Position numbers and translations under genes: made by a program. From Naegleria gruberi (Eukaryota): 36,114 nucleotides of DNA. Under the pieces are notes generated by a model. The model saw only the letters and a list, made by a program, of their open reading frames with translations. It was not told the DNA's origin and did not search any database. Numbering within the stretch: position 1 is the stretch's first letter; every line of letters begins with the position of its first letter. Of the stretch, positions 1 through 36,114 are shown in pieces. Location: the NCBI GenBank assembly GCA_000004985.1, contig GG739231.1. One strand, given 5' to 3'.

Positions 1-153
1 ACAATTTTGTAAATAGTTATTCTTCCAGTACTGGTTTAGTCAATTGTTCTACTATTTCTTCTATTGATTTGTCTTTAACCAACTTGGTGAGGTCATAAAG
101 AATACAAATCACTTTTTGGAGAAACACATCCAGCCTTTGCCTTTTCAGGGGAA

Positions 154-7400: not shown

Positions 7401-10400
7401 NNNNNNNNNNNNNNNNNNNNNNNNNNNNNNNNNNNNNNNNNNNNNNNNNNNNNNNNNNNNNNNNNNNNNNNNNNNNNNNNNNNNNNNNNNNNNNNNNNNN
7501 NNNNNNNNNNNNNNNNNNNNNNNNNNNNNNNNNNNNNNNNNNNNNNNNNNNNNNNNNNNNNNNNNNNNNNNNNNNNNNNNNNNNNNNNNNNNNNNNNNNN
7601 NNNNNNNNNNNNNNNNNNNNNNNNNNNNNNNNNNNNNNNNNNNNNNNNNNNNNNNNNNNNNNNNNNNNNNNNNNNNNNNNNNNNNNNNNNNNNNNNNNNN
7701 NNNNNNNNNNNNNNNNNNNNNNNNNNNNNNNNNNNNNNNNNNNNNNNNNNNNNNNNNNNNNNNNNNNNNNNNNNNNNNNNNNNNNNNNNNNNNNNNNNNN
7801 NNNNNNNNNNNNNNNNNNNNNNNNNNNNNNNNNNNNNNNNNNNNNNNNNNNNNNNNNNNNNNNNNNNNNNNNNNNNNNNNNNNNNNNNNNNNNNNNNNNN
7901 NNNNNNNNNNNNNNNNNNNNNNNNNNNNNNNNNNNNNNNNNNNNNNNNNNNNNNNNNNNNNNNNNNNNNNNNNNNNNNNNNNNNNNNNNNNNNNNNNNNN
8001 NNNNNNNNNNNNNNNNNNNNNNNNNNNNNNNNNNNNNNNNNNNNNNNNNNNNNNNNNNNNNNNNNNNNNNNNNNNNNNNNNNNNNNNNNNNNNNNNNNNN
8101 NNNNNNNNNNNNNNNNNNNNNNNNNNNNNNNNNNNNNNNNNNNNNNNNNNNNNNNNNNNNNNNNNNNNNNNNNNNNNNNNNNNNNNNNNNNNNNNNNNNN
8201 NNNNNNNNNNNNNNNNNNNNNNNNNNNNNNNNNNNNNNNNNNNNNNNNNNNNNNNNNNNNNNNNNNNNNNNNNNNNNNNNNNNNNNNNNNNNNNNNNNNN
8301 NNNNNNNNNNNNNNNNNNNNNNNNNNNNNNNNNNNNNNNNNNNNNNNNNNNNNNNNNNNNNNNNNNNNNNNNNNNNNNNNNNNNNNNNNNNNNNNNNNNN
8401 NNNNNNNNNNNNNNNNNNNNNNNNNNNNNNNNNNNNNNNNNNNNNNNNNNNNNNNNNNNNNNNNNNNNNNNNNNNNNNNNNNNNNNNNNNNNNNNNNNNN
8501 NNNNNNNNNNNNNNNNNNNNNNNNNNNNNNNNNNNNNNNNNNNNNNNNNNNNNNNNNNNNNNNNNNNNNNNNNNNNNNNNNNNNNNNNNNNNNNNNNNNN
8601 NNNNNNNNNNNNNNNNNNNNNNNNNNNNNNNNNNNNNNNNNNNNNNNNNNNNNNNNNNNNNNNNNNNNNNNNNNNNNNNNNNNNNNNNNNNNNNNNNNNN
8701 NNNNNNNNNNNNNNNNNNNNNNNNNNNNNNNNNNNNNNNNNNNNNNNNNNNNNNNNNNNNNNNNNNNNNNNNNNNNNNNNNNNNNNNNNNNNNNNNNNNN
8801 NNNNNNNNNNNNNNNNNNNNNNNNNNNNNNNNNNNNNNNNNNNNNNNNNNNNNNNNNNNNNNNNNNNNNNNNNNNNNNNNNNNNNNNNNNNNNNNNNNNN
8901 NNNNNNNNNNNNNNNNNNNNNNNNNNNNNNNNNNNNNNNNNNNNNNNNNNNNNNNNNNNNNNNNNNNNNNNNNNNNNNNNNNNNNNNNNNNNNNNNNNNN
9001 NNNNNNNNNNNNNNNNNNNNNNNNNNNNNNNNNNNNNNNNNNNNNNNNNNNNNNNNNNNNNNNNNNNNNNNNNNNNNNNNNNNNNNNNNNNNNNNNNNNN
9101 NNNNNNNNNNNNNNNNNNNNNNNNNNNNNNNNNNNNNNNNNNNNNNNNNNNNNNNNNNNNNNNNNNNNNNNNNNNNNNNNNNNNNNNNNNNNNNNNNNNN
9201 NNNNNNNNNNNNNNNNNNNNNNNNNNNNNNNNNNNNNNNNNNNNNNNNNNNNNNNNNNNNNNNNNNNNNNNNNNNNNNNNNNNNNNNNNNNNNNNNNNNN
9301 NNNNNNNNNNNNNNNNNNNNNNNNNNNNNNNNNNNNNNNNNNNNNNNNNNNNNNNNNNNNNNNNNNNNNNNNNNNNNNNNNNNNNNNNNNNNNNNNNNNN
9401 NNNNNNNNNNNNNNNNNNNNNNNNNNNNNNNNNNNNNNNNNNNNNNNNNNNNNNNNNNNNNNNNNNNNNNNNNNNNNNNNNNNNNNNNNNNNNNNNNNNN
9501 NNNNNNNNNNNNNNNNNNNNNNNNNNNNNNNNNNNNNNNNNNNNNNNNNNNNNNNNNNNNNNNNNNNNNNNNNNNNNNNNNNNNNNNNNNNNNNNNNNNN
9601 NNNNNNNNNNNNNNNNNNNNNNNNNNNNNNNNNNNNNNNNNNNNNNNNNNNNNNNNNNNNNNNNNNNNNNNNNNNNNNNNNNNNNNNNNNNNNNNNNNNN
9701 NNNNNNNNNNNNNNNNNNNNNNNNNNNNNNNNNNNNNNNNNNNNNNNNNNNNNNNNNNNNNNNNNNNNNNNNNNNNNNNNNNNNNNNNNNNNNNNNNNNN
9801 NNNNNNNNNNNNNNNNNNNNNNNNNNNNNNNNNNNNNNNNNNNNNNNNNNNNNNNNNNNNNNNNNNNNNNNNNNNNNNNNNNNNNNNNNNNNNNNNNNNN
9901 NNNNNNNNNNNNNNNNNNNNNNNNNNNNNNNNNNNNNNNNNNNNNNNNNNNNNNNNNNNNNNNNNNNNNNNNNNNNNNNNNNNNNNNNNNNNNNNNNNNN
10001 NNNNNNNNNNNNNNNNNNNNNNNNNNNNNNNNNNNNNNNNNNNNNNNNNNNNNNNNNNNNNNNNNNNNNNNNNNNNNNNNNNNNNNNNNNNNNNNNNNNN
10101 NNNNNNNNNNNNNNNNNNNNNNNNNNNNNNNNNNNNNNNNNNNNNNNNNNNNNNNNNNNNNNNNNNNNNNNNNNNNNNNNNNNNNNNNNNNNNNNNNNNN
10201 NNNNNNNNNNNNNNNNNNNNNNNNNNNNNNNNNNNNNNNNNNNNNNNNNNNNNNNNNNNNNNNNNNNNNNNNNNNNNNNNNNNNNNNNNNNNNNNNNNNN
10301 NNNNNNNNNNNNNNNNNNNNNNNNNNNNNNNNNNNNNNNNNNNNNNNNNNNNNNNNNNNNNNNNNNNNNNNNNNNNNNNNNNNNNNNNNNNNNNNNNNNN

Positions 10401-13400
10401 NNNNNNNNNNNNNNNNNNNNNNNNNNNNNNNNNNNNNNNNNNNNNNNNNNNNNNNNNNNNNNNNNNNNNNNNNNNNNNNNNNNNNNNNNNNNNNNNNNNN
10501 NNNNNNNNNNNNNNNNNNNNNNNNNNNNNNNNNNNNNNNNNNNNNNNNNNNNNNNNNNNNNNNNNNNNNNNNNNNNNNNNNNNNNNNNNNNNNNNNNNNN
10601 NNNNNNNNNNNNNNNNNNNNNNNNNNNNNNNNNNNNNNNNNNNNNNNNNNNNNNNNNNNNNNNNNNNNNNNNNNNNNNNNNNNNNNNNNNNNNNNNNNNN
10701 NNNNNNNNNNNNNNNNNNNNNNNNNNNNNNNNNNNNNNNNNNNNNNNNNNNNNNNNNNNNNNNNNNNNNNNNNNNNNNNNNNNNNNNNNNNNNNNNNNNN
10801 NNNNNNNNNNNNNNNNNNNNNNNNNNNNNNNNNNNNNNNNNNNNNNNNNNNNNNNNNNNNNNNNNNNNNNNNNNNNNNNNNNNNNNNNNNNNNNNNNNNN
10901 NNNNNNNNNNNNNNNNNNNNNNNNNNNNNNNNNNNNNNNNNNNNNNNNNNNNNNNNNNNNNNNNNNNNNNNNNNNNNNNNNNNNNNNNNNNNNNNNNNNN
11001 NNNNNNNNNNNNNNNNNNNNNNNNNNNNNNNNNNNNNNNNNNNNNNNNNNNNNNNNNNNNNNNNNNNNNNNNNNNNNNNNNNNNNNNNNNNNNNNNNNNN
11101 NNNNNNNNNNNNNNNNNNNNNNNNNNNNNNNNNNNNNNNNNNNNNNNNNNNNNNNNNNNNNNNNNNNNNNNNNNNNNNNNNNNNNNNNNNNNNNNNNNNN
11201 NNNNNNNNNNNNNNNNNNNNNNNNNNNNNNNNNNNNNNNNNNNNNNNNNNNNNNNNNNNNNNNNNNNNNNNNNNNNNNNNNNNNNNNNNNNNNNNNNNNN
11301 NNNNNNNNNNNNNNNNNNNNNNNNNNNNNNNNNNNNNNNNNNNNNNNNNNNNNNNNNNNNNNNNNNNNNNNNNNNNNNNNNNNNNNNNNNNNNNNNNNNN
11401 NNNNNNNNNNNNNNNNNNNNNNNNNNNNNNNNNNNNNNNNNNNNNNNNNNNNNNNNNNNNNNNNNNNNNNNNNNNNNNNNNNNNNNNNNNNNNNNNNNNN
11501 NNNNNNNNNNNNNNNNNNNNNNNNNNNNNNNNNNNNNNNNNNNNNNNNNNNNNNNNNNNNNNNNNNNNNNNNNNNNNNNNNNNNNNNNNNNNNNNNNNNN
11601 NNNNNNNNNNNNNNNNNNNNNNNNNNNNNNNNNNNNNNNNNNNNNNNNNNNNNNNNNNNNNNNNNNNNNNNNNNNNNNNNNNNNNNNNNNNNNNNNNNNN
11701 NNNNNNNNNNNNNNNNNNNNNNNNNNNNNNNNNNNNNNNNNNNNNNNNNNNNNNNNNNNNNNNNNNNNNNNNNNNNNNNNNNNNNNNNNNNNNNNNNNNN
11801 NNNNNNNNNNNNNNNNNNNNNNNNNNNNNNNNNNNNNNNNNNNNNNNNNNNNNNNNNNNNNNNNNNNNNNNNNNNNNNNNNNNNNNNNNNNNNNNNNNNN
11901 NNNNNNNNNNNNNNNNNNNNNNNNNNNNNNNNNNNNNNNNNNNNNNNNNNNNNNNNNNNNNNNNNNNNNNNNNNNNNNNNNNNNNNNNNNNNNNNNNNNN
12001 NNNNNNNNNNNNNNNNNNNNNNNNNNNNNNNNNNNNNNNNNNNNNNNNNNNNNNNNNNNNNNNNNNNNNNNNNNNNNNNNNNNNNNNNNNNNNNNNNNNN
12101 NNNNNNNNNNNNNNNNNNNNNNNNNNNNNNNNNNNNNNNNNNNNNNNNNNNNNNNNNNNNNNNNNNNNNNNNNNNNNNNNNNNNNNNNNNNNNNNNNNNN
12201 NNNNNNNNNNNNNNNNNNNNNNNNNNNNNNNNNNNNNNNNNNNNNNNNNNNNNNNNNNNNNNNNNNNNNNNNNNNNNNNNNNNNNNNNNNNNNNNNNNNN
12301 NNNNNNNNNNNNNNNNNNNNNNNNNNNNNNNNNNNNNNNNNNNNNNNNNNNNNNNNNNNNNNNNNNNNNNNNNNNNNNNNNNNNNNNNNNNNNNNNNNNN
12401 NNNNNNNNNNNNNNNNNNNNNNNNNNNNNNNNNNNNNNNNNNNNNNNNNNNNNNNNNNNNNNNNNNNNNNNNNNNNNNNNNNNNNNNNNNNNNNNNNNNN
12501 NNNNNNNNNNNNNNNNNNNNNNNNNNNNNNNNNNNNNNNNNNNNNNNNNNNNNNNNNNNNNNNNNNNNNNNNNNNNNNNNNNNNNNNNNNNNNNNNNNNN
12601 NNNNNNNNNNNNNNNNNNNNNNNNNNNNNNNNNNNNNNNNNNNNNNNNNNNNNNNNNNNNNNNNNNNNNNNNNNNNNNNNNNNNNNNNNNNNNNNNNNNN
12701 NNNNNNNNNNNNNNNNNNNNNNNNNNNNNNNNNNNNNNNNNNNNNNNNNNNNNNNNNNNNNNNNNNNNNNNNNNNNNNNNNNNNNNNNNNNNNNNNNNNN
12801 NNNNNNNNNNNNNNNNNNNNNNNNNNNNNNNNNNNNNNNNNNNNNNNNNNNNNNNNNNNNNNNNNNNNNNNNNNNNNNNNNNNNNNNNNNNNNNNNNNNN
12901 NNNNNNNNNNNNNNNNNNNNNNNNNNNNNNNNNNNNNNNNNNNNNNNNNNNNNNNNNNNNNNNNNNNNNNNNNNNNNNNNNNNNNNNNNNNNNNNNNNNN
13001 NNNNNNNNNNNNNNNNNNNNNNNNNNNNNNNNNNNNNNNNNNNNNNNNNNNNNNNNNNNNNNNNNNNNNNNNNNNNNNNNNNNNNNNNNNNNNNNNNNNN
13101 NNNNNNNNNNNNNNNNNNNNNNNNNNNNNNNNNNNNNNNNNNNNNNNNNNNNNNNNNNNNNNNNNNNNNNNNNNNNNNNNNNNNNNNNNNNNNNNNNNNN
13201 NNNNNNNNNNNNNNNNNNNNNNNNNNNNNNNNNNNNNNNNNNNNNNNNNNNNNNNNNNNNNNNNNNNNNNNNNNNNNNNNNNNNNNNNNNNNNNNNNNNN
13301 NNNNNNNNNNNNNNNNNNNNNNNNNNNNNNNNNNNNNNNNNNNNNNNNNNNNNNNNNNNNNNNNNNNNNNNNNNNNNNNNNNNNNNNNNNNNNNNNNNNN

Positions 13401-16400
13401 NNNNNNNNNNNNNNNNNNNNNNNNNNNNNNNNNNNNNNNNNNNNNNNNNNNNNNNNNNNNNNNNNNNNNNNNNNNNNNNNNNNNNNNNNNNNNNNNNNNN
13501 NNNNNNNNNNNNNNNNNNNNNNNNNNNNNNNNNNNNNNNNNNNNNNNNNNNNNNNNNNNNNNNNNNNNNNNNNNNNNNNNNNNNNNNNNNNNNNNNNNNN
13601 NNNNNNNNNNNNNNNNNNNNNNNNNNNNNNNNNNNNNNNNNNNNNNNNNNNNNNNNNNNNNNNNNNNNNNNNNNNNNNNNNNNNNNNNNNNNNNNNNNNN
13701 NNNNNNNNNNNNNNNNNNNNNNNNNNNNNNNNNNNNNNNNNNNNNNNNNNNNNNNNNNNNNNNNNNNNNNNNNNNNNNNNNNNNNNNNNNNNNNNNNNNN
13801 NNNNNNNNNNNNNNNNNNNNNNNNNNNNNNNNNNNNNNNNNNNNNNNNNNNNNNNNNNNNNNNNNNNNNNNNNNNNNNNNNNNNNNNNNNNNNNNNNNNN
13901 NNNNNNNNNNNNNNNNNNNNNNNNNNNNNNNNNNNNNNNNNNNNNNNNNNNNNNNNNNNNNNNNNNNNNNNNNNNNNNNNNNNNNNNNNNNNNNNNNNNN
14001 NNNNNNNNNNNNNNNNNNNNNNNNNNNNNNNNNNNNNNNNNNNNNNNNNNNNNNNNNNNNNNNNNNNNNNNNNNNNNNNNNNNNNNNNNNNNNNNNNNNN
14101 NNNNNNNNNNNNNNNNNNNNNNNNNNNNNNNNNNNNNNNNNNNNNNNNNNNNNNNNNNNNNNNNNNNNNNNNNNNNNNNNNNNNNNNNNNNNNNNNNNNN
14201 NNNNNNNNNNNNNNNNNNNNNNNNNNNNNNNNNNNNNNNNNNNNNNNNNNNNNNNNNNNNNNNNNNNNNNNNNNNNNNNNNNNNNNNNNNNNNNNNNNNN
14301 NNNNNNNNNNNNNNNNNNNNNNNNNNNNNNNNNNNNNNNNNNNNNNNNNNNNNNNNNNNNNNNNNNNNNNNNNNNNNNNNNNNNNNNNNNNNNNNNNNNN
14401 NNNNNNNNNNNNNNNNNNNNNNNNNNNNNNNNNNNNNNNNNNNNNNNNNNNNNNNNNNNNNNNNNNNNNNNNNNNNNNNNNNNNNNNNNNNNNNNNNNNN
14501 NNNNNNNNNNNNNNNNNNNNNNNNNNNNNNNNNNNNNNNNNNNNNNNNNNNNNNNNNNNNNNNNNNNNNNNNNNNNNNNNNNNNNNNNNNNNNNNNNNNN
14601 NNNNNNNNNNNNNNNNNNNNNNNNNNNNNNNNNNNNNNNNNNNNNNNNNNNNNNNNNNNNNNNNNNNNNNNNNNNNNNNNNNNNNNNNNNNNNNNNNNNN
14701 NNNNNNNNNNNNNNNNNNNNNNNNNNNNNNNNNNNNNNNNNNNNNNNNNNNNNNNNNNNNNNNNNNNNNNNNNNNNNNNNNNNNNNNNNNNNNNNNNNNN
14801 NNNNNNNNNNNNNNNNNNNNNNNNNNNNNNNNNNNNNNNNNNNNNNNNNNNNNNNNNNNNNNNNNNNNNNNNNNNNNNNNNNNNNNNNNNNNNNNNNNNN
14901 NNNNNNNNNNNNNNNNNNNNNNNNNNNNNNNNNNNNNNNNNNNNNNNNNNNNNNNNNNNNNNNNNNNNNNNNNNNNNNNNNNNNNNNNNNNNNNNNNNNN
15001 NNNNNNNNNNNNNNNNNNNNNNNNNNNNNNNNNNNNNNNNNNNNNNNNNNNNNNNNNNNNNNNNNNNNNNNNNNNNNNNNNNNNNNNNNNNNNNNNNNNN
15101 NNNNNNNNNNNNNNNNNNNNNNNNNNNNNNNNNNNNNNNNNNNNNNNNNNNNNNNNNNNNNNNNNNNNNNNNNNNNNNNNNNNNNNNNNNNNNNNNNNNN
15201 NNNNNNNNNNNNNNNNNNNNNNNNNNNNNNNNNNNNNNNNNNNNNNNNNNNNNNNNNNNNNNNNNNNNNNNNNNNNNNNNNNNNNNNNNNNNNNNNNNNN
15301 NNNNNNNNNNNNNNNNNNNNNNNNNNNNNNNNNNNNNNNNNNNNNNNNNNNNNNNNNNNNNNNNNNNNNNNNNNNNNNNNNNNNNNNNNNNNNNNNNNNN
15401 NNNNNNNNNNNNNNNNNNNNNNNNNNNNNNNNNNNNNNNNNNNNNNNNNNNNNNNNNNNNNNNNNNNNNNNNNNNNNNNNNNNNNNNNNNNNNNNNNNNN
15501 NNNNNNNNNNNNNNNNNNNNNNNNNNNNNNNNNNNNNNNNNNNNNNNNNNNNNNNNNNNNNNNNNNNNNNNNNNNNNNNNNNNNNNNNNNNNNNNNNNNN
15601 NNNNNNNNNNNNNNNNNNNNNNNNNNNNNNNNNNNNNNNNNNNNNNNNNNNNNNNNNNNNNNNNNNNNNNNNNNNNNNNNNNNNNNNNNNNNNNNNNNNN
15701 NNNNNNNNNNNNNNNNNNNNNNNNNNNNNNNNNNNNNNNNNNNNNNNNNNNNNNNNNNNNNNNNNNNNNNNNNNNNNNNNNNNNNNNNNNNNNNNNNNNN
15801 NNNNNNNNNNNNNNNNNNNNNNNNNNNNNNNNNNNNNNNNNNNNNNNNNNNNNNNNNNNNNNNNNNNNNNNNNNNNNNNNNNNNNNNNNNNNNNNNNNNN
15901 NNNNNNNNNNNNNNNNNNNNNNNNNNNNNNNNNNNNNNNNNNNNNNNNNNNNNNNNNNNNNNNNNNNNNNNNNNNNNNNNNNNNNNNNNNNNNNNNNNNN
16001 NNNNNNNNNNNNNNNNNNNNNNNNNNNNNNNNNNNNNNNNNNNNNNNNNNNNNNNNNNNNNNNNNNNNNNNNNNNNNNNNNNNNNNNNNNNNNNNNNNNN
16101 NNNNNNNNNNNNNNNNNNNNNNNNNNNNNNNNNNNNNNNNNNNNNNNNNNNNNNNNNNNNNNNNNNNNNNNNNNNNNNNNNNNNNNNNNNNNNNNNNNNN
16201 NNNNNNNNNNNNNNNNNNNNNNNNNNNNNNNNNNNNNNNNNNNNNNNNNNNNNNNNNNNNNNNNNNNNNNNNNNNNNNNNNNNNNNNNNNNNNNNNNNNN
16301 NNNNNNNNNNNNNNNNNNNNNNNNNNNNNNNNNNNNNNNNNNNNNNNNNNNNNNNNNNNNNNNNNNNNNNNNNNNNNNNNNNNNNNNNNNNNNNNNNNNN

Positions 16401-19400
16401 NNNNNNNNNNNNNNNNNNNNNNNNNNNNNNNNNNNNNNNNNNNNNNNNNNNNNNNNNNNNNNNNNNNNNNNNNNNNNNNNNNNNNNNNNNNNNNNNNNNN
16501 NNNNNNNNNNNNNNNNNNNNNNNNNNNNNNNNNNNNNNNNNNNNNNNNNNNNNNNNNNNNNNNNNNNNNNNNNNNNNNNNNNNNNNNNNNNNNNNNNNNN
16601 NNNNNNNNNNNNNNNNNNNNNNNNNNNNNNNNNNNNNNNNNNNNNNNNNNNNNNNNNNNNNNNNNNNNNNNNNNNNNNNNNNNNNNNNNNNNNNNNNNNN
16701 NNNNNNNNNNNNNNNNNNNNNNNNNNNNNNNNNNNNNNNNNNNNNNNNNNNNNNNNNNNNNNNNNNNNNNNNNNNNNNNNNNNNNNNNNNNNNNNNNNNN
16801 NNNNNNNNNNNNNNNNNNNNNNNNNNNNNNNNNNNNNNNNNNNNNNNNNNNNNNNNNNNNNNNNNNNNNNNNNNNNNNNNNNNNNNNNNNNNNNNNNNNN
16901 NNNNNNNNNNNNNNNNNNNNNNNNNNNNNNNNNNNNNNNNNNNNNNNNNNNNNNNNNNNNNNNNNNNNNNNNNNNNNNNNNNNNNNNNNNNNNNNNNNNN
17001 NNNNNNNNNNNNNNNNNNNNNNNNNNNNNNNNNNNNNNNNNNNNNNNNNNNNNNNNNNNNNNNNNNNNNNNNNNNNNNNNNNNNNNNNNNNNNNNNNNNN
17101 NNNNNNNNNNNNNNNNNNNNNNNNNNNNNNNNNNNNNNNNNNNNNNNNNNNNNNNNNNNNNNNNNNNNNNNNNNNNNNNNNNNNNNNNNNNNNNNNNNNN
17201 NNNNNNNNNNNNNNNNNNNNNNNNNNNNNNNNNNNNNNNNNNNNNNNNNNNNNNNNNNNNNNNNNNNNNNNNNNNNNNNNNNNNNNNNNNNNNNNNNNNN
17301 NNNNNNNNNNNNNNNNNNNNNNNNNNNNNNNNNNNNNNNNNNNNNNNNNNNNNNNNNNNNNNNNNNNNNNNNNNNNNNNNNNNNNNNNNNNNNNNNNNNN
17401 NNNNNNNNNNNNNNNNNNNNNNNNNNNNNNNNNNNNNNNNNNNNNNNNNNNNNNNNNNNNNNNNNNNNNNNNNNNNNNNNNNNNNNNNNNNNNNNNNNNN
17501 NNNNNNNNNNNNNNNNNNNNNNNNNNNNNNNNNNNNNNNNNNNNNNNNNNNNNNNNNNNNNNNNNNNNNNNNNNNNNNNNNNNNNNNNNNNNNNNNNNNN
17601 NNNNNNNNNNNNNNNNNNNNNNNNNNNNNNNNNNNNNNNNNNNNNNNNNNNNNNNNNNNNNNNNNNNNNNNNNNNNNNNNNNNNNNNNNNNNNNNNNNNN
17701 NNNNNNNNNNNNNNNNNNNNNNNNNNNNNNNNNNNNNNNNNNNNNNNNNNNNNNNNNNNNNNNNNNNNNNNNNNNNNNNNNNNNNNNNNNNNNNNNNNNN
17801 NNNNNNNNNNNNNNNNNNNNNNNNNNNNNNNNNNNNNNNNNNNNNNNNNNNNNNNNNNNNNNNNNNNNNNNNNNNNNNNNNNNNNNNNNNNNNNNNNNNN
17901 NNNNNNNNNNNNNNNNNNNNNNNNNNNNNNNNNNNNNNNNNNNNNNNNNNNNNNNNNNNNNNNNNNNNNNNNNNNNNNNNNNNNNNNNNNNNNNNNNNNN
18001 NNNNNNNNNNNNNNNNNNNNNNNNNNNNNNNNNNNNNNNNNNNNNNNNNNNNNNNNNNNNNNNNNNNNNNNNNNNNNNNNNNNNNNNNNNNNNNNNNNNN
18101 NNNNNNNNNNNNNNNNNNNNNNNNNNNNNNNNNNNNNNNNNNNNNNNNNNNNNNNNNNNNNNNNNNNNNNNNNNNNNNNNNNNNNNNNNNNNNNNNNNNN
18201 NNNNNNNNNNNNNNNNNNNNNNNNNNNNNNNNNNNNNNNNNNNNNNNNNNNNNNNNNNNNNNNNNNNNNNNNNNNNNNNNNNNNNNNNNNNNNNNNNNNN
18301 NNNNNNNNNNNNNNNNNNNNNNNNNNNNNNNNNNNNNNNNNNNNNNNNNNNNNNNNNNNNNNNNNNNNNNNNNNNNNNNNNNNNNNNNNNNNNNNNNNNN
18401 NNNNNNNNNNNNNNNNNNNNNNNNNNNNNNNNNNNNNNNNNNNNNNNNNNNNNNNNNNNNNNNNNNNNNNNNNNNNNNNNNNNNNNNNNNNNNNNNNNNN
18501 NNNNNNNNNNNNNNNNNNNNNNNNNNNNNNNNNNNNNNNNNNNNNNNNNNNNNNNNNNNNNNNNNNNNNNNNNNNNNNNNNNNNNNNNNNNNNNNNNNNN
18601 NNNNNNNNNNNNNNNNNNNNNNNNNNNNNNNNNNNNNNNNNNNNNNNNNNNNNNNNNNNNNNNNNNNNNNNNNNNNNNNNNNNNNNNNNNNNNNNNNNNN
18701 NNNNNNNNNNNNNNNNNNNNNNNNNNNNNNNNNNNNNNNNNNNNNNNNNNNNNNNNNNNNNNNNNNNNNNNNNNNNNNNNNNNNNNNNNNNNNNNNNNNN
18801 NNNNNNNNNNNNNNNNNNNNNNNNNNNNNNNNNNNNNNNNNNNNNNNNNNNNNNNNNNNNNNNNNNNNNNNNNNNNNNNNNNNNNNNNNNNNNNNNNNNN
18901 NNNNNNNNNNNNNNNNNNNNNNNNNNNNNNNNNNNNNNNNNNNNNNNNNNNNNNNNNNNNNNNNNNNNNNNNNNNNNNNNNNNNNNNNNNNNNNNNNNNN
19001 NNNNNNNNNNNNNNNNNNNNNNNNNNNNNNNNNNNNNNNNNNNNNNNNNNNNNNNNNNNNNNNNNNNNNNNNNNNNNNNNNNNNNNNNNNNNNNNNNNNN
19101 NNNNNNNNNNNNNNNNNNNNNNNNNNNNNNNNNNNNNNNNNNNNNNNNNNNNNNNNNNNNNNNNNNNNNNNNNNNNNNNNNNNNNNNNNNNNNNNNNNNN
19201 NNNNNNNNNNNNNNNNNNNNNNNNNNNNNNNNNNNNNNNNNNNNNNNNNNNNNNNNNNNNNNNNNNNNNNNNNNNNNNNNNNNNNNNNNNNNNNNNNNNN
19301 NNNNNNNNNNNNNNNNNNNNNNNNNNNNNNNNNNNNNNNNNNNNNNNNNNNNNNNNNNNNNNNNNNNNNNNNNNNNNNNNNNNNNNNNNNNNNNNNNNNN

Positions 19401-22400
19401 NNNNNNNNNNNNNNNNNNNNNNNNNNNNNNNNNNNNNNNNNNNNNNNNNNNNNNNNNNNNNNNNNNNNNNNNNNNNNNNNNNNNNNNNNNNNNNNNNNNN
19501 NNNNNNNNNNNNNNNNNNNNNNNNNNNNNNNNNNNNNNNNNNNNNNNNNNNNNNNNNNNNNNNNNNNNNNNNNNNNNNNNNNNNNNNNNNNNNNNNNNNN
19601 NNNNNNNNNNNNNNNNNNNNNNNNNNNNNNNNNNNNNNNNNNNNNNNNNNNNNNNNNNNNNNNNNNNNNNNNNNNNNNNNNNNNNNNNNNNNNNNNNNNN
19701 NNNNNNNNNNNNNNNNNNNNNNNNNNNNNNNNNNNNNNNNNNNNNNNNNNNNNNNNNNNNNNNNNNNNNNNNNNNNNNNNNNNNNNNNNNNNNNNNNNNN
19801 NNNNNNNNNNNNNNNNNNNNNNNNNNNNNNNNNNNNNNNNNNNNNNNNNNNNNNNNNNNNNNNNNNNNNNNNNNNNNNNNNNNNNNNNNNNNNNNNNNNN
19901 NNNNNNNNNNNNNNNNNNNNNNNNNNNNNNNNNNNNNNNNNNNNNNNNNNNNNNNNNNNNNNNNNNNNNNNNNNNNNNNNNNNNNNNNNNNNNNNNNNNN
20001 NNNNNNNNNNNNNNNNNNNNNNNNNNNNNNNNNNNNNNNNNNNNNNNNNNNNNNNNNNNNNNNNNNNNNNNNNNNNNNNNNNNNNNNNNNNNNNNNNNNN
20101 NNNNNNNNNNNNNNNNNNNNNNNNNNNNNNNNNNNNNNNNNNNNNNNNNNNNNNNNNNNNNNNNNNNNNNNNNNNNNNNNNNNNNNNNNNNNNNNNNNNN
20201 NNNNNNNNNNNNNNNNNNNNNNNNNNNNNNNNNNNNNNNNNNNNNNNNNNNNNNNNNNNNNNNNNNNNNNNNNNNNNNNNNNNNNNNNNNNNNNNNNNNN
20301 NNNNNNNNNNNNNNNNNNNNNNNNNNNNNNNNNNNNNNNNNNNNNNNNNNNNNNNNNNNNNNNNNNNNNNNNNNNNNNNNNNNNNNNNNNNNNNNNNNNN
20401 NNNNNNNNNNNNNNNNNNNNNNNNNNNNNNNNNNNNNNNNNNNNNNNNNNNNNNNNNNNNNNNNNNNNNNNNNNNNNNNNNNNNNNNNNNNNNNNNNNNN
20501 NNNNNNNNNNNNNNNNNNNNNNNNNNNNNNNNNNNNNNNNNNNNNNNNNNNNNNNNNNNNNNNNNNNNNNNNNNNNNNNNNNNNNNNNNNNNNNNNNNNN
20601 NNNNNNNNNNNNNNNNNNNNNNNNNNNNNNNNNNNNNNNNNNNNNNNNNNNNNNNNNNNNNNNNNNNNNNNNNNNNNNNNNNNNNNNNNNNNNNNNNNNN
20701 NNNNNNNNNNNNNNNNNNNNNNNNNNNNNNNNNNNNNNNNNNNNNNNNNNNNNNNNNNNNNNNNNNNNNNNNNNNNNNNNNNNNNNNNNNNNNNNNNNNN
20801 NNNNNNNNNNNNNNNNNNNNNNNNNNNNNNNNNNNNNNNNNNNNNNNNNNNNNNNNNNNNNNNNNNNNNNNNNNNNNNNNNNNNNNNNNNNNNNNNNNNN
20901 NNNNNNNNNNNNNNNNNNNNNNNNNNNNNNNNNNNNNNNNNNNNNNNNNNNNNNNNNNNNNNNNNNNNNNNNNNNNNNNNNNNNNNNNNNNNNNNNNNNN
21001 NNNNNNNNNNNNNNNNNNNNNNNNNNNNNNNNNNNNNNNNNNNNNNNNNNNNNNNNNNNNNNNNNNNNNNNNNNNNNNNNNNNNNNNNNNNNNNNNNNNN
21101 NNNNNNNNNNNNNNNNNNNNNNNNNNNNNNNNNNNNNNNNNNNNNNNNNNNNNNNNNNNNNNNNNNNNNNNNNNNNNNNNNNNNNNNNNNNNNNNNNNNN
21201 NNNNNNNNNNNNNNNNNNNNNNNNNNNNNNNNNNNNNNNNNNNNNNNNNNNNNNNNNNNNNNNNNNNNNNNNNNNNNNNNNNNNNNNNNNNNNNNNNNNN
21301 NNNNNNNNNNNNNNNNNNNNNNNNNNNNNNNNNNNNNNNNNNNNNNNNNNNNNNNNNNNNNNNNNNNNNNNNNNNNNNNNNNNNNNNNNNNNNNNNNNNN
21401 NNNNNNNNNNNNNNNNNNNNNNNNNNNNNNNNNNNNNNNNNNNNNNNNNNNNNNNNNNNNNNNNNNNNNNNNNNNNNNNNNNNNNNNNNNNNNNNNNNNN
21501 NNNNNNNNNNNNNNNNNNNNNNNNNNNNNNNNNNNNNNNNNNNNNNNNNNNNNNNNNNNNNNNNNNNNNNNNNNNNNNNNNNNNNNNNNNNNNNNNNNNN
21601 NNNNNNNNNNNNNNNNNNNNNNNNNNNNNNNNNNNNNNNNNNNNNNNNNNNNNNNNNNNNNNNNNNNNNNNNNNNNNNNNNNNNNNNNNNNNNNNNNNNN
21701 NNNNNNNNNNNNNNNNNNNNNNNNNNNNNNNNNNNNNNNNNNNNNNNNNNNNNNNNNNNNNNNNNNNNNNNNNNNNNNNNNNNNNNNNNNNNNNNNNNNN
21801 NNNNNNNNNNNNNNNNNNNNNNNNNNNNNNNNNNNNNNNNNNNNNNNNNNNNNNNNNNNNNNNNNNNNNNNNNNNNNNNNNNNNNNNNNNNNNNNNNNNN
21901 NNNNNNNNNNNNNNNNNNNNNNNNNNNNNNNNNNNNNNNNNNNNNNNNNNNNNNNNNNNNNNNNNNNNNNNNNNNNNNNNNNNNNNNNNNNNNNNNNNNN
22001 NNNNNNNNNNNNNNNNNNNNNNNNNNNNNNNNNNNNNNNNNNNNNNNNNNNNNNNNNNNNNNNNNNNNNNNNNNNNNNNNNNNNNNNNNNNNNNNNNNNN
22101 NNNNNNNNNNNNNNNNNNNNNNNNNNNNNNNNNNNNNNNNNNNNNNNNNNNNNNNNNNNNNNNNNNNNNNNNNNNNNNNNNNNNNNNNNNNNNNNNNNNN
22201 NNNNNNNNNNNNNNNNNNNNNNNNNNNNNNNNNNNNNNNNNNNNNNNNNNNNNNNNNNNNNNNNNNNNNNNNNNNNNNNNNNNNNNNNNNNNNNNNNNNN
22301 NNNNNNNNNNNNNNNNNNNNNNNNNNNNNNNNNNNNNNNNNNNNNNNNNNNNNNNNNNNNNNNNNNNNNNNNNNNNNNNNNNNNNNNNNNNNNNNNNNNN

Positions 22401-34486: not shown

Positions 34487-34625
34487 GGAAACAACAACCT
34501 TTCAAGTTGAAATTCCTGAAAAAGAATGGAAAAGAACAATTAACAGACAAGTTTATTCTACTACTCAACCAATTAATCGTTCCATTCAAGAATTGAAACA
34601 ACAAGTGACCGAAACAAAACGAAAC

Positions 34626-35291
34626 ATGTTGTCAATTTCCACTCCTCTATGGATTTTGGTCTTCCTTCTCTCAGTTTTGATTGCAATTGAATATTCCAAG
34701 TTTCAATTTGTTTCTAATAATTCATCAACAGCAACCCAACAACCAAATTATATTTACAACAATTACACAACCATTCAATCAAAATATTCAACTAGATCAT
34801 TAGAAACCAATGCCAATGACAATATTAAGAGCTCTAATAACCCTCCTTCTTCTCTTCCTTCCCCACCAATTCCAAAACTCACAATTCAATTCATTTCTGA
34901 AAATGTCCAATACATTAATACTGGTTATCTTCAAGAAAAGTTTACAAAATCACTCAGTTCATTGACAGTCCCTCCAAAAATTCAATTCGAATTCAAAAGA
35001 TTAAAATCCATAGATGAAATCACTAAGAATTCATTCTTCCTCTTAATTGTACAATCCACAAGATTCCACGATGAAGAAAGGGAACATCTCTTGAAGAAGT
35101 ATACAAAGGATATTCCATTAGATCAATGTGCTGTCATTTTCGTATGTCTTTCAGATTTGATTAGATTGACTAAAGATCAAACTATGGGAAGAGATGTTTT
35201 CAGTGTGAAATGGAATGAAAATGTCAAACAAATTAATGAAAGAGATGAAAAAACAATTGGAAAATTGATTGAAAAAATTATTGGTGAATAA
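34626..35291 (+). CDS. Hypothetical secretory-pathway protein, 221 aa: N-terminal signal peptide or signal anchor, N/S/T/P-rich stalk, small C-terminal domain
   Basis: ATG at 34626 (context aaacATGt) starts MLSISTPLWILVFLLSVLIAIEYSKF…. This is a 17-residue uninterrupted hydrophobic core straight after the Met. It is followed by a low-complexity stalk with NxS/T sequons (NNSS, NYTT): SNNSSTATQQPNYIYNNYTTIQSKYSTRSLETNANDNIKSSNNPPSSLPSPPIPK. A C-terminal region of about 130 aa follows (…FFLLIVQSTRFHDEEREHLLKKYTKDIPLDQCAVIFVCLSDL…KLIEKIIGE). The stop is TAA at 35289-35291. The ORF track starts it at 34593, which is a TTG. The first in-frame ATG is 34626. The frame is additionally open upstream to 34452 (see findings). 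Confidence 0.7.
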   Translation: MLSISTPLWILVFLLSVLIAIEYSKFQFVSNNSSTATQQPNYIYNNYTTIQSKYSTRSLETNANDNIKSSNNPPSSLPSPPIPKLTIQFISENVQYINTGYLQEKFTKSLSSLTVPPKIQFEFKRLKSIDEITKNSFFLLIVQSTRFHDEEREHLLKKYTKDIPLDQCAVIFVCLSDLIRLTKDQTMGRDVFSVKWNENVKQINERDEKTIGKLIEKIIGE

Positions 35292-35292
35292 A
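35287..35292 (+). promoter_or_regulatory. AATAAA hexamer overlapping the TAA stop of the 221-aa protein gene (possible polyadenylation/positioning element)
   Basis: The sequence ggtgAATAAAct contains AATAAA, with TAA at 35289-35291 embedded in it. AT-rich context makes a chance occurrence plausible. It is only meaningful if the genome is eukaryotic. Confidence 0.2.
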
Positions 35293-35326
35293 CTTTGACA
35301 GCTCGAGTTGGACAATAATCTTTACA

Positions 35327-35332
35327 TTTATT
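35327..35332 (-). promoter_or_regulatory. AATAAA hexamer (minus strand) overlapping the TAA stop of the nucleotidyltransferase gene
   Basis: Plus strand 35327-35332 is tttatt. On the minus strand it reads …attAAATAAAtgt…, with the stop TAA (35330-35328) inside AATAAA. It is the mirror image of the arrangement on the convergent gene 36 bp away. Confidence 0.2.
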
Positions 35333-36114
35333 TAATATGGTTAGCGAAATGATTATTGTAAAACTGATCACCAAAATCACTTCTCAACAAATTCTCCAAC
35401 TTTGCTTTGTTAGCTTTTCCAATTCCTTTCGTGTATTGAGTTCTAATTTCCATGTCACTAATGAATTTACCACTTTTAACTTGTTCAATTATGAATGATT
35501 TAGTTTTGGCATCTGCAGAATATCCCTTCAAAAGGAATTTGTAAAATCTCATCAACTTTGTTGGATTGCCAGAAACCCAAAATTCCCAATCTCTTGGTTT
35601 TACAGGAATTCGTAAATTTTTTGAAATTACGTCCTTAATTCCTTGCCCATTTCCAATAGTATCAATAATGCACTTATTGATTGGATCATACCAAAGAGAA
35701 TTACATGTGAAATCTCTACAAATGTTTTCTCCTCTCAGATTAGTTCCATAACATTGAGCAATTTGTGCTTTCACACTCTTATTATCATTATTTAAACCAT
35801 TAATGGCTTTACCTTCCAGGAATAGATCAGAACCATTGGAGCTTCCTACTTGAACTAGTCCACGGGGTCCAGGAATTGGAACACCTGATTTATATTTTCG
35901 AGTGAGGCGTCCATGAAATGTTTGTGGATCACAACCAAATCCAATATCAATATCCTTAATATTATTCATAATTTGTAAGGCATTGGTCTTTTTTTCAACA
36001 ATCACTTCTCTAATGACATCTCTGACAGCTCCTCCAACAATAAATATTGGAATATCATGCTGTTCTCTCATGTATTTCATAACATCGATATAGGTAGCAT
36101 TGGGCTCACTCCAT
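35328..36114 (-). CDS. Class II nucleotidyltransferase (CCA-adding enzyme / poly(A) polymerase family, PolyA_pol head domain plus neck); short form without body/tail domains; 5' end open at the window edge
   Basis: Translation …YIDVMKYMREQHDIPIFIVGGAVRDVIREVIVEKKTNALQIMNNIKDIDIGFGCDPQTFHGRLTRKYKSG…RGENICRDFTCNSLWYDPINKCIIDTIGNGQGIKDVISKNLRIPVKPRDWEFWVSGNPTKLMRFYKFLLKGY…NHIK*. GGAVRD plus DIDI matches motif A (GGxVRD…DxD metal carboxylates). CRDFTCNS matches the RRD(F/L)TxNA motif. GxGxxDxxxxxLR and NPTKLMRFYKFL match the (E)DPLRxLRxxRF neck helix. The stop TAA is at 35330-35328. The frame stays open upstream of the ATG at 36080 right to base 36114 (…WSEPNATYIDV-M), so the true start may be 36080 or lie beyond the window. 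It is 262 or more codons, against about 410-550 for canonical CCA enzymes. Confidence 0.8.
   Translation of the reverse strand, partial: WSEPNATYIDVMKYMREQHDIPIFIVGGAVRDVIREVIVEKKTNALQIMNNIKDIDIGFGCDPQTFHGRLTRKYKSGVPIPGPRGLVQVGSSNGSDLFLEGKAINGLNNDNKSVKAQIAQCYGTNLRGENICRDFTCNSLWYDPINKCIIDTIGNGQGIKDVISKNLRIPVKPRDWEFWVSGNPTKLMRFYKFLLKGYSADAKTKSFIIEQVKSGKFISDMEIRTQYTKGIGKANKAKLENLLRSDFGDQFYNNHFANHIK

What the first reader, a model, noticed from the sequence alone, without database searches (positions are those of the whole stretch)
35328..36114. Class II nucleotidyltransferase with head and neck only (no body/tail)
The ORF carries every catalytic head signature of the CCA-adding / poly(A) polymerase superfamily: GGAVRD, DIDI, RDFTCN, and an NPTKLMRFYKFL neck helix. 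But it terminates at a clean TAA only about 60 residues after the neck. A convergent gene's stop lies 36 bp beyond, so no downstream exon can supply the missing part. Canonical CCA-adding enzymes need the C-terminal body and tail to hold the tRNA acceptor and T arms. A form without them might act on a different substrate, need a partner protein, or be a recently truncated gene. The RRDFTINA motif is altered to CRDFTCNS (first Arg→Cys, Ile→Cys, Ala→Ser), which may change nucleotide selection.
Basis: partly seen in the sequence, partly recalled or inferred. Interest (0 to 1): 0.55.

Follow-up and report, generated by a model that had tools for sequence, protein, structure and literature searches.

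The report
Tail-less nucleotidyltransferase tied to ADP-ribose systems
The window holds the back half of a Naegleria gruberi gene for an uncharacterised relative of the tRNA CCA-adding enzymes. This relative never had the tRNA-holding domains; instead it carries, in relatives and neighbouring genes, ADP-ribose-related modules (PBZ-like zinc fingers, WWE, PARP), which suggests a new link between nucleotide tailing and ADP-ribosylation.

Summary
Window 35328-36114 (minus strand) is an intact class II nucleotidyltransferase ORF (Pfam PF01743, E 2.3e-9). It has GGAVRD, DIDIGF and CRDFTCNS motifs, a TAA stop 67 residues after the neck helix, and a convergent ORF 36 bp away.

The window is a whole N. 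gruberi scaffold, and its end cuts the gene. The fragment is 99% identical to the last 258 residues of a full-length 555-aa N. gruberi protein (NAEGRDRAFT_53363). That protein also lacks body and tail. Upstream it has PBZ-like CCHH zinc fingers and an SH3-like beta-barrel.

This is a conserved family, not a recent truncation: 63 cluster representatives score E<=1e-30, and 58 of 62 end within 60 residues of the module. The base-templating Asp/Arg of CCA enzymes is replaced by a conserved Asn/Lys.

Relatives are fused to WWE or to U-box+PARP. In Naegleria, Willaertia and two metagenomic lineages they lie beside PARP genes and CCR4-like nuclease genes that carry the same zinc fingers. More distant relatives sit in phage head-gene modules.

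Best reading (inferred, not shown): an ADP-ribose-targeted terminal nucleotidyltransferase acting on RNA ends. I found no description of it in the literature, so I rate it a new variant of a known kind.

The parts
35328..36114 (-). 3' part (last 258-261 codons plus TAA stop) of a class II nucleotidyltransferase gene. The 5' part is cut off by the scaffold end.
   Evidence: The frame is open to the scaffold end. Pfam PF01743 matches at E 2.3e-9. The fragment is 255/258 identical to residues 298-555 of N. gruberi NAEGRDRAFT_53363, P0164.
36018..36035 (-). Motif A, first part: GGAVRD.
   Evidence: Coordinates. GG, R and D are 97-100% conserved in the core family.
35937..35957 (-). Motif A, second part: KDIDIGF, with the two metal-binding aspartates (DxD).
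   Evidence: D 100% and 97%.
35781..35819 (-). Family-specific head segment LEGKAINGLNNDN. Its Glu is a candidate third carboxylate.
   Evidence: E 97%, G 100% and K 100% conserved in the core family. The role of the Glu is inferred.
35685..35729 (-). Motif B region ENICRDFTCNSLWYD (CRD in place of the canonical RRD).
   Evidence: It aligns to RRDATINALFYN of S. pombe cca1. R is 94% and D 100% conserved; the first position is C 58% / Y 30%.
35601..35669 (-). Motif C-like segment IIDTIGNGQGIKDVISKNLRIPV.
   Evidence: It aligns to VEDFTGKGLVDLSNKIIRTPL of cca1.
35520..35579 (-). Neck helix with the altered motif D: WVSGNPTKLMRFYKFLLKGY. GNPTK stands where CCA enzymes have [E/D]DPxR.
   Evidence: HMMER alignments to cca1 'GDDPLR'. 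N and K are each 97% conserved in the core family.
35331..35474 (-). C-terminal 48 residues: short helical tail that ends the protein. It is not a body or tail domain.
   Evidence: The models show helices only, at pLDDT above 88. There is no Pfam match. The homologues end at the same place.
36102..36114 (-). Scaffold-end anomaly. The frame that matches the full-length copy switches here (GVSP in one frame, PNATY... in the next).
   Evidence: Three-frame translation compared with P0164 residues 294-301. This looks like a 1-nt difference in a C run. It could be a read-end error or a real frameshift; I could not tell which.
35292..35327 (.). 36-bp spacer between the two convergent stop codons.
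34593..35291 (+). Convergent 232-aa ORF (context only). It has an N-terminal hydrophobic stretch and no known domain.
   Evidence: It has no counterpart beside the NTase gene in the six related loci held at that point, L001-L006.

Best explanation
The window carries the 3' part of a near-identical second copy of N. gruberi gene NAEGRDRAFT_53363. This copy is either a haplotig or a very recent duplicate.

The full protein (555 aa) reads: PBZ-like CCHH zinc fingers, then an SH3-like beta-barrel, then a class II nucleotidyltransferase head, then the neck plus a short helical tail.

It belongs to a conserved, uncharacterised clade of class II enzymes that never had the tRNA-measuring body and tail. 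The active site is intact. The nucleobase-templating Asp/Arg of CCA-adding enzymes and poly(A) polymerases is replaced by Asn/Lys.

I infer that it is a template-independent terminal (ribo)nucleotidyltransferase. It would be placed on its substrate not by tRNA shape but by ADP-ribose/poly(ADP-ribose) marks read by its zinc fingers (by WWE in some relatives). It would work together with the PARP enzymes and the CCR4/ANGEL-type 3'-end nucleases that are encoded beside it and carry the same zinc fingers.

The most likely acceptor is the 3' end of RNA, in a stress or antiviral RNA-end pathway.

Shown here: the fold, the motifs, the absence of body and tail, the family, the fusions and the gene neighbourhoods.
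Inferred: catalytic activity, nucleotide specificity, the acceptor, PAR binding, and the pathway.
For: Identity of the fragment.
- The window is a complete 36,114-bp N. gruberi scaffold.
- The ORF is 99% identical to the C-terminal 258 aa of the 555-aa P0164.

Fold.
- AlphaFold models are confident: the Willaertia orthologue scores pLDDT 93.4 and pTM 0.91; the N. gruberi core scores pLDDT above 90.

Family.
- 63 representatives score E<=1e-30 and 403 score E<=1e-10.
- 58 of 62 members end within 60 residues of the module.
- The catalytic motifs and the GNPxK motif are conserved at 94-100%.

Links to ADP-ribose.
- Tandem C-x5-C-x6-9-H-x5-H fingers, many with the C-x-[FY]-G-x-x-C...H-x3-[FY]-x-H pattern, occur in the NTases and in the neighbouring PARP and EEP proteins. 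Shuffled sequences give about 0.01 per protein.
- There is one WWE fusion, at E 3.7e-11.
- Three U-box+PARP+NTase fusion clusters exist.

Gene neighbourhoods.
- N. lovaniensis: PARP - EEP - NTase - EEP - PARP - zfUBP-SIR2.
- N. fowleri has the same order.
- Willaertia: PARP is adjacent and the orthologous EEP lies on the same contig.
- N. gruberi: the orthologous EEP is on a contig of the same 238,573-bp length as the one carrying the full-length NTase, and is probably the same scaffold.
- Two unnamed metagenomic lineages: EEP adjacent, or EEP plus PARP.

Neighbour types.
- The EEPs are closest to CCR4, CNOT6L, ANGEL2 and Nocturnin.
- The PARPs are closest to PARP12/15/14 but have Glu at the third triad position.

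Precedents.
- TENT5/FAM46 shows that a head-plus-helical-domain enzyme without body or tail is an active poly(A) polymerase (PMC7049688).
- PARP10, PARP15 and TRPT1 appear in papers on ADP-ribosylation of RNA (PMC6582358, seen only in the search listing). That these enzymes modify RNA ends is from my own knowledge.
Against: - There is no biochemical evidence of any kind for this family.
- The PBZ assignment rests on the sequence pattern. Pfam zf-CCHH matches only one relative, and below threshold (16.8 bits against 22.7).
- The window itself shows neither the zinc fingers nor PARP or EEP neighbours. Its downstream gene differs from that in N. lovaniensis.
- Three eukaryotic loci have no PARP or EEP nearby: the Willaertia paralogue, L010 and L011.
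- Phage relatives have no PAR context. The ADP-ribose link is therefore a eukaryotic addition and says little about the core enzyme's acceptor.
- PBZ proteins are typically DNA-damage-response factors (PMC4245714). That favours DNA ends or PAR over RNA as the acceptor.
- The window copy may itself be non-functional or an assembly duplicate.
Confidence: 0.5

Rival explanations
1. The acceptor is ADP-ribose or poly(ADP-ribose) itself. In this reading the enzyme adds a nucleotide to a ribose hydroxyl of protein- or nucleic-acid-linked ADP-ribose. That would cap or mark the chain. The neighbouring CCR4/PDE12-type EEP would be the eraser.
For: - PAR/ADP-ribose reader modules are fused to the enzyme: PBZ-like fingers and WWE.
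- Direct U-box+PARP+NTase fusions exist.
- The neighbouring PARPs have an H-Y-E triad, which is compatible with PAR synthesis.
- The altered base-templating and motif B residues and the missing tRNA-binding domains fit an unusual substrate pocket.
- There is a precedent. OAS adds 2'-5' AMP to ADP-ribose and so terminates PARylation (PMC7756014).
- The EEP family includes PDE12 and Nocturnin, which act on 2-5A and NADP(H). For PDE12 this is my own knowledge; Nocturnin is among the PDB hits.
Against: - Phage relatives share the barrel+head+neck core but have no PARP context.
- Class II enzymes are known only with polynucleotide primers.
- Reader domains normally recruit enzymes to a site. They do not define the substrate.
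Confidence: 0.18
2. It is a DNA-end processing enzyme of PAR-dependent DNA repair. It would add untemplated nucleotides to DNA 3' ends at breaks that PARP has marked, with the EEP acting as an end-cleaning nuclease or phosphatase.
For: - PBZ modules are reported almost only in DNA-damage-response proteins and co-occur with PARPs (PMC4245714).
- The EEP superfamily also contains DNA-repair enzymes such as APE1 and TDP2 (my own knowledge).
- The change of the first motif B Arg (CRD) could relax discrimination of the sugar. This is an inference.
Against: - The closest solved relatives of the EEPs are RNA or nucleotide enzymes (CCR4, CNOT6L, ANGEL2, Nocturnin), not APE1 or TDP2.
- The Arg-Asp of motif B is retained.
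- No class II enzyme is known to act on DNA in vivo.
- The PARPs resemble the PARP12/14/15 group rather than the DNA-break sensors PARP1-3.
Confidence: 0.12
3. It is a compact tRNA CCA-adding or CCA-repair enzyme in which the N-terminal barrel replaces the body and tail.
For: - The nearest sequence and structure relatives are CCA-adding enzymes.
- Phages encode tRNA nucleotidyltransferases.
Against: - NCBIfam CCA equivalog models score 24.5 against a cut-off of 438.8, and 13.5 against 290.
- The Asp/Arg that template C and A are Asn/Lys.
- The fusions with PBZ, WWE, PARP and U-box have no link to tRNA maturation.
Confidence: 0.05
4. The short form is a recently truncated or decaying gene.
For: - The window copy is incomplete and lies on a 1.76-kb contig.
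- It has an apparent 1-nt frame change 12 nt from the scaffold end.
- The public gene model for it is defective.
Against: - The C-terminal end point is shared by the full-length N. gruberi copy and by 58 of 62 family members.
- All catalytic motifs are intact across 258 codons, with only 3 substitutions relative to the full-length copy.
- The 5' truncation coincides exactly with the scaffold end, so it is an assembly limit and not a biological truncation.
Confidence: 0.03

Closest known systems
Class II CCA-adding enzymes (tRNA nucleotidyltransferases; e.g. T. maritima 3H37, B. stearothermophilus 1MIV, S. pombe cca1 9NS2)
   Same: - GGxVRD and DxD motifs.
- R-D of motif B.
- Motif C-like segment.
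- Helix carrying motif D.
   Different: - No body or tail domains.
- Motif D [E/D]DxxR is GNPxK.
- The first Arg of RRD is Cys or Tyr.
- About 25 extra residues in the head, including LEGKxINGxNND.
- An added N-terminal SH3-like barrel and PBZ-like fingers.
- NCBIfam equivalog scores are far below the cut-offs.
Bacterial poly(A) polymerase I (PcnB; 3AQL)
   Different: The score is 35.4 against a cut-off of 305.65. The enzyme here has no body, tail or C-terminal RNA-binding region, and its base-contacting residues differ.
TENT5/FAM46 non-canonical poly(A) polymerases (6JYJ)
   Different: Only about 12% identity, so it is not the same sequence family. TENT5 has no barrel and no PBZ or WWE modules. 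TENT5 is found mainly in vertebrates (PMC7049688).
OAS1 / PDE12 pair acting on 2'-5' adenylates and on ADP-ribose
   Same: The same concept: a nucleotidyltransferase paired with a CCR4-type EEP phosphodiesterase and connected to PARylation. OAS 2'-adenylates ADP-ribose and so terminates PAR chains (PMC7756014).
   Different: OAS is a different branch of the Pol-beta superfamily, activated by dsRNA. No homology beyond the core fold is implied. The parallel is functional only and has not been tested.
Phage virion-associated InPase + PolyA_pol proteins ('polyvalent protein' context, Iyer et al. 2017)
   Same: - Distant members of the same short NTase family. They match from the head to near the C-terminus: in about 1,100-aa fusions the module ends 19-69 residues before the C-terminus.
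- One phage member keeps the N-terminal barrel (P0157).
   Different: - They are fused or adjacent to InPase, portal and terminase modules.
- They have no PBZ, WWE or PARP.
- The paper describes InPase. In the passages I searched I found no mention of a PolyA_pol-type NTase partner (PMC5512222).
Stand-alone CCA-enzyme head-domain protein (S. pneumoniae NP_344798.1, 2LA3)
   Different: It is head only (191 aa), with no neck helix carrying a motif D equivalent. The similarity is much weaker.

Membership tests
Class II nucleotidyltransferase superfamily (Pfam PF01743 PolyA_pol head) | Head-domain profile match above the curated threshold | tested here: met
   38.1 bits against a cut-off of 23, E 2.3e-9, model positions 1-126 of 126.
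Class II nucleotidyltransferase superfamily (Pfam PF01743 PolyA_pol head) | Motif A: GGxVRD followed by DxD metal-binding carboxylates | tested here: met
   GGAVRD and DIDIGF are present in the window ORF and 97-100% conserved in the family.
Class II nucleotidyltransferase superfamily (Pfam PF01743 PolyA_pol head) | Head + helical neck fold superposable on solved class II enzymes | tested here: met
   [not shown]
CCA-adding enzyme (tRNA nucleotidyltransferase) in the strict sense | [quoted passage not shown] | tested here: not met
   The protein ends 67 residues after the neck helix. No Pfam domain follows the head. The full-length copy and 58 of 62 relatives end at the same point. The role of body and tail is taken from PMC3925840.
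CCA-adding enzyme (tRNA nucleotidyltransferase) in the strict sense | Neck motif D [E/D]DxxR: Asp and Arg that template CTP/ATP | tested here: not met
   GNPTK aligns to GDDPLR of S. pombe cca1. N and K are 97% conserved in the core family.
CCA-adding enzyme (tRNA nucleotidyltransferase) in the strict sense | Equivalog-level profile score (NCBIfam TIGR02692, NF009814) | tested here: not met
   24.5 against 438.8, and 13.5 against 290.
CCA-adding enzyme (tRNA nucleotidyltransferase) in the strict sense | CCA addition to tRNA 3' ends | not testable with these tools
   This needs an enzyme assay.
Bacterial poly(A) polymerase I (PcnB, TIGR01942) | Subfamily profile score above cut-off | tested here: not met
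   35.4 against 305.65. Only residues 121-210 match.
PBZ (PAR-binding zinc finger, Pfam PF10283) containing proteins | C-x5-C-x6-H-x5-H finger with the C-x-[FY]-G-x-x-C...H-x3-[FY]-x-H signature | tested here: inconclusive
   The window has no such finger, because that part of the gene lies off the scaffold. The full-length N. gruberi copy has two strict pattern matches. Orthologues and neighbouring PARP and EEP proteins have 2-7 tandem fingers, against about 0.01 expected in shuffles. The spacers are 7-12 rather than 6. Pfam zf-CCHH reaches only 16.8 bits against 22.7, in a single relative. The consensus pattern itself is recalled from the literature.
PBZ (PAR-binding zinc finger, Pfam PF10283) containing proteins | Binding of poly(ADP-ribose) | not testable with these tools
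   This needs a PAR-binding assay.
TENT5/FAM46 poly(A) polymerases | Sequence-family membership | tested here: not met
   [not shown]

The most novel reading that the evidence does not exclude
The enzyme writes a hybrid mark. Guided by its PBZ or WWE readers, it transfers a nucleotide onto a ribose hydroxyl of ADP-ribose or PAR, or onto an ADP-ribosylated nucleic-acid end. The neighbouring H-Y-E PARPs would be the primary writers and the CCR4/PDE12-like EEPs the erasers. This would be an independently evolved counterpart of OAS-mediated 2'-adenylation of ADP-ribose, and a new class of ADP-ribose modification.
Probability: 0.15. Interest if true: 0.85.

Novelty: new variant of a known kind. Interest (0 to 1): 0.6.

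Why it matters
Class II nucleotidyltransferases are textbook tRNA- and RNA-tailing enzymes whose substrate choice is attributed to the body and tail domains.

This analysis points to a sizeable, conserved and unstudied branch that lacks those domains. It also has different base-reading residues. In eukaryotes it is repeatedly wired to ADP-ribosylation by PBZ-like fingers, by WWE, by U-box-PARP fusions, and by gene clusters with PARPs and CCR4-like nucleases. That kind of clustering is unusual in a eukaryote.

The result is a directly testable hypothesis that PARP signalling controls, or is itself modified by, untemplated nucleotide addition.

It also corrects the public annotation: XP_002668193 is a truncated, mis-spliced model of a duplicate of XP_002670734.

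The phage branch suggests the core enzyme may also have a role in virus-host conflict.

Tried and rejected
Searches that gave nothing or were unavailable:
- IMG/VR viral contigs scanned with family patterns: no relative. An earlier attempt failed for lack of conserved columns.
- JGI metagenome contigs scanned: no relative.
- AFDB50 fold search: the library is not installed.
- BFVD viral fold search: only ordinary phage and giant-virus tRNA nucleotidyltransferases, TM about 0.45.
- DNA for the full-length N. gruberi gene and for its EEP neighbour: not on record. I therefore could not settle haplotig versus paralogue, or the exact gene order in N. gruberi.
- Pfam on the convergent ORF and on the ORF pieces of the left contig: nothing.
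- tblastn of the convergent ORF against the six related loci held at that point (L001-L006): nothing, so there is no synteny downstream.
- Literature searches gave no description of this family. Term sets tried: PBZ / nucleotidyltransferase / Naegleria; CCA-adding / WWE; Naegleria / CCA-adding; ADP-ribosyltransferase natural history / PBZ / WWE.

Ideas considered and rejected:
- Recent truncation: the end point is conserved.
- Giant-virus insertion: no viral relatives found, and the flanking genes are typical of eukaryotes.
- The annotated intron near the 3' end: the unspliced frame matches all homologues.
- The weak recurrent hits to cytosolic 5'-nucleotidase III / Pfam UMPH-1 around GIPVFIVGGAVRDV: I judge these a short chance similarity.
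Full report
**What is in the window.**
The window is a complete 36,114-bp scaffold of Naegleria gruberi. The public protein on it, XP_002668193 'predicted protein', lists 36,114 bp as its longest contig. Bases 1490-34357 are N. The real sequence is therefore two small contigs of about 32% G+C.

On the right-hand contig the minus-strand frame from 36113 to 35331 is open for 261 codons and stops at TAA 35328-35330.
- GGAVRD (nt 36018-36035)
- KDIDIGF (35937-35957)
- ENICRDFTCNSLWYD (35685-35729)
- the helix WVSGNPTKLMRFYKFLLKGY (35520-35579)

A 232-codon convergent ORF (34593-35291) ends 36 bp from the stop. Pfam gives one hit, the class II head domain PF01743 (E 2.3e-9, 38.1 bits against a cut-off of 23, full model length). 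Nothing else matches at E<=1. NCBIfam models for PcnB and for CCA-adding enzymes match only weakly, far below their cut-offs.

**The gene is cut by the scaffold end, and a full-length copy exists.**
The frame runs to the last base. In all homologues, the Met positions used by the ORF list and by the public model are internal residues.

A cluster look-up showed that the public model shares a 90%-identity cluster with a second N. gruberi protein. This is NAEGRDRAFT_53363 (XP_002670734, D2VYX4), 555 aa, on a 238,573-bp scaffold. The window ORF is 255/258 identical to its residues 298-555, through to the last residue. The window therefore holds the 3' part of a near-identical second copy, either a haplotig or a very recent duplicate. 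I could not decide which, because the DNA of the large scaffold was not retrievable.

Two annotation errors follow. The 218-aa public model starts at an internal Met. It also removes a small 'intron' that frame-shifts the tail, whereas the unspliced frame matches the full-length copy and every homologue. In the last 12 nt of the scaffold, the frame that matches the full-length copy changes (GVSP in one frame, PNATY... in another). This is consistent with one base missing from a C run.

**The missing body and tail is a family trait.**
A profile built from the first homologues was searched against 1.84 billion representative proteins. It found 63 proteins at E<=1e-30 and 403 at E<=1e-10. Of the 62 retrieved proteins whose match reaches the C-terminal end of the family model, 48 end within 20 residues and 58 within 60. 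Orthologues in N. lovaniensis (638 aa), N. fowleri (520 aa) and Willaertia magna (369, 700 aa) all end at the same position.

The last 48 residues form a few helices and match no known domain. 'Recent truncation' is rejected, and no compact tRNA-binding module is hidden in the tail.

**What the complete protein looks like.**

Further upstream, the Naegleria and Willaertia proteins and several metagenomic relatives carry tandem zinc-finger repeats of the form C-x5-C-x6-9-H-x5-H. Many have the C-x-[FY]-G-x-x-C ... H-x3-[FY]-x-H signature of PAR-binding PBZ fingers. Shuffled sequences give about 0.01 such matches per protein. Pfam's short PBZ model supports this only weakly (one relative, below threshold). 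I therefore call the fingers PBZ-like.

**Active site.**
The metal-binding residues and the motif B Arg-Asp are 94-100% conserved in the core family, so the enzyme is very probably active.

Two departures from canonical enzymes are conserved across the family:
- The first Arg of RRD is Cys or Tyr.
- The neck residues that align with the [E/D]DxxR of CCA enzymes read GNPxK, with Asn and Lys each 97% conserved.

In class II enzymes this Asp and Arg form the protein 'template' that reads CTP and ATP, and the body and tail hold the tRNA (PMC3925840). Both determinants of CCA-enzyme specificity are therefore changed.

**Links to ADP-ribosylation.**
Four independent lines of evidence connect the family to ADP-ribosylation.

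1. Reader-domain fusions. These are the PBZ-like fingers, and in one representative a clear WWE domain (E 3.7e-11).

2. Catalytic fusions. Three representative clusters are U-box + PARP + NTase proteins.

3. Gene order.
   - In N. lovaniensis the order is PARP, EEP, NTase, EEP, PARP, zf-UBP-SIR2. N. fowleri has the same order.
   - In Willaertia a PARP gene lies directly upstream, and the orthologous EEP is on the same contig.
   - In two unnamed metagenomic lineages an EEP, or two EEPs plus a PARP fragment, adjoin the NTase.
   - In N. gruberi the orthologous EEP (NAEGRDRAFT_74275, D2VYX2) is on a contig of the same 238,573-bp length as the one carrying the full-length NTase (D2VYX4). I take these to be the same scaffold. 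The neighbouring UniProt accessions hint that the two genes lie close together, but that is only a hint.

4. Shared fingers. The neighbouring PARP and EEP proteins carry the same tandem fingers.

The EEPs are closest to CCR4/CNOT6L, ANGEL2 and Nocturnin. The PARPs are closest to PARP12/15/14. However, they have Glu where PARP12 has Ile and PARP15 has Leu, which gives an H-Y-E triad (the triad assignments are established knowledge).

The clustering is not universal. A Willaertia paralogue lies between guanylate-binding-protein genes, and two other eukaryotic contigs show no PARP or EEP. The window itself shows none of this context. Its downstream ORF has no counterpart in the six related loci that were compared.

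**Phage relatives.**
One member that keeps the barrel (P0157) lies in a co-directional, tightly packed phage-like contig. More distant members follow terminase, portal and an InPase gene. Others are fused to InPase in proteins of 1,100-1,700 residues, one of which contains inteins. InPase was described as a virion-packaged phage 'polyvalent protein' domain (PMC5512222). The barrel+head+neck core is therefore older than its connection to PARP, and it probably acts on nucleic-acid ends.

**Mechanism.**
The fold, motifs, architecture, family, fusions and neighbourhoods are shown. The rest is inferred.

My best reading is as follows. The protein is a terminal ribonucleotidyltransferase with a nucleotide preference different from C/A. 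It is brought to its substrate by ADP-ribose or PAR marks rather than by tRNA shape. It is opposed by CCR4/ANGEL-type 3'-end nucleases, and it sits within a PARP-controlled RNA-end pathway of stress or antiviral type.

TENT5/FAM46 shows that a head-plus-helical-domain enzyme without body or tail can be an active poly(A) polymerase (PMC7049688). PARP10, PARP15 and TRPT1 are the subject of papers on RNA ADP-ribosylation (PMC6582358, seen in the search listing). That they modify RNA ends is from my own knowledge.

The rivals are:
- ADP-ribose or PAR itself as the acceptor. The precedent is OAS, which 2'-adenylates ADP-ribose and terminates PARylation (PMC7756014).
- DNA ends in PAR-dependent repair. 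PBZ proteins are mostly DNA-damage factors (PMC4245714).
- A compact tRNA enzyme.
- Gene decay.

**Comparison and novelty.**
The protein is a member of the class II nucleotidyltransferase superfamily: the profile, the motifs and the fold were all tested and met. It is not a CCA-adding enzyme or a PcnB. For those, the body/tail, motif D and equivalog-score tests were run and not met.

It works most like a TENT5-type two-domain tailing enzyme, but it is not a sequence relative of TENT5. Four literature searches found no description of this clade or of its link to PARP. Database names are 'predicted protein' or 'Poly A polymerase head domain-containing protein'.

I rate it a new variant of a known kind, with interest 0.6. 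The architecture and the eukaryotic PARP-EEP-NTase clustering are unexpected and directly testable, but there is no functional evidence.

Noticed in passing
window 1490-34357: A run of 32,868 N. The 'window' is two contigs of 1.5 kb and 1.76 kb bridged by a gap. ORF listings that cross the gap are meaningless.
   Followed up: yes
window 35328-36080 (public model XP_002668193 / P0001): The annotated 218-aa model starts at an internal Met and splices out a short 'intron' near the 3' end. This replaces the conserved tail with a frame-shifted KLNTRKELEKLTKQSWRIC. The unspliced frame matches the full-length paralogue and all homologues.
   Followed up: yes
window 36102-36114: The last 12 nt read GVSP in one frame and continue as PNATY... 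in the next. The full-length copy reads GVSPNATY in a single frame. This looks like a 1-nt difference in a C run at the very end of the scaffold.
   Followed up: partly
window 34593-35291 (+): Convergent 232-aa ORF with an N-terminal hydrophobic stretch and Asn/Ser-rich low-complexity sequence. It has no Pfam hit and no counterpart beside the NTase gene in the six related loci compared (L001-L006).
   Followed up: partly
window 1-1489 (-): Several ORF pieces lie on the minus strand, one running into the gap. None has a Pfam match. They are probably part of an unrelated gene, interrupted by introns or by sequencing errors.
   Followed up: partly
L005 (N. lovaniensis) 6339-17009; L007 (N. fowleri) 8959-17115: A tight cluster of PARP, EEP, NTase, EEP, PARP and zf-UBP-SIR2 genes lies next to the ubiquitin E1 gene. 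A separate 507-aa protein in L005 consists of low-complexity sequence plus three of the same zinc fingers.
   Followed up: partly
L005 13967-15421 (PARP, 484 aa): This PARP is closest overall to the mono-ADP-ribosyltransferases PARP12/15. However, it has Glu at the third catalytic-triad position (H-Y-E), as PAR-forming enzymes do.
   Followed up: partly
L008 (Willaertia magna) 7279-19444: The 700-aa Willaertia paralogue lies between two guanylate-binding-protein (GBP) genes and an RCC1/BTB gene. This may be an immunity-type neighbourhood.
   Followed up: no
P0041 (representative library, 7704 aa): A 7,704-residue protein with five separate matches to the family profile. It may be a tandem array fused by gene prediction, or a true giant protein.
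   Followed up: no
P0158 (Willaertia magna, 755 aa): This gene model combines catalase domains (PF00199, PF06628) with a C-terminal piece of the NTase module. It lies on the same contig as the truncated paralogue P0012, so it is probably a merged or broken gene model.
   Followed up: no
family region around GIPVFIVGGAVRDV (window about 36010-36050): Recurrent weak hits to Pfam UMPH-1 and to PDB cytosolic 5'-nucleotidase III (E about 0.002-0.01). They span the linker and motif A. I judge them a chance local similarity.
   Followed up: partly
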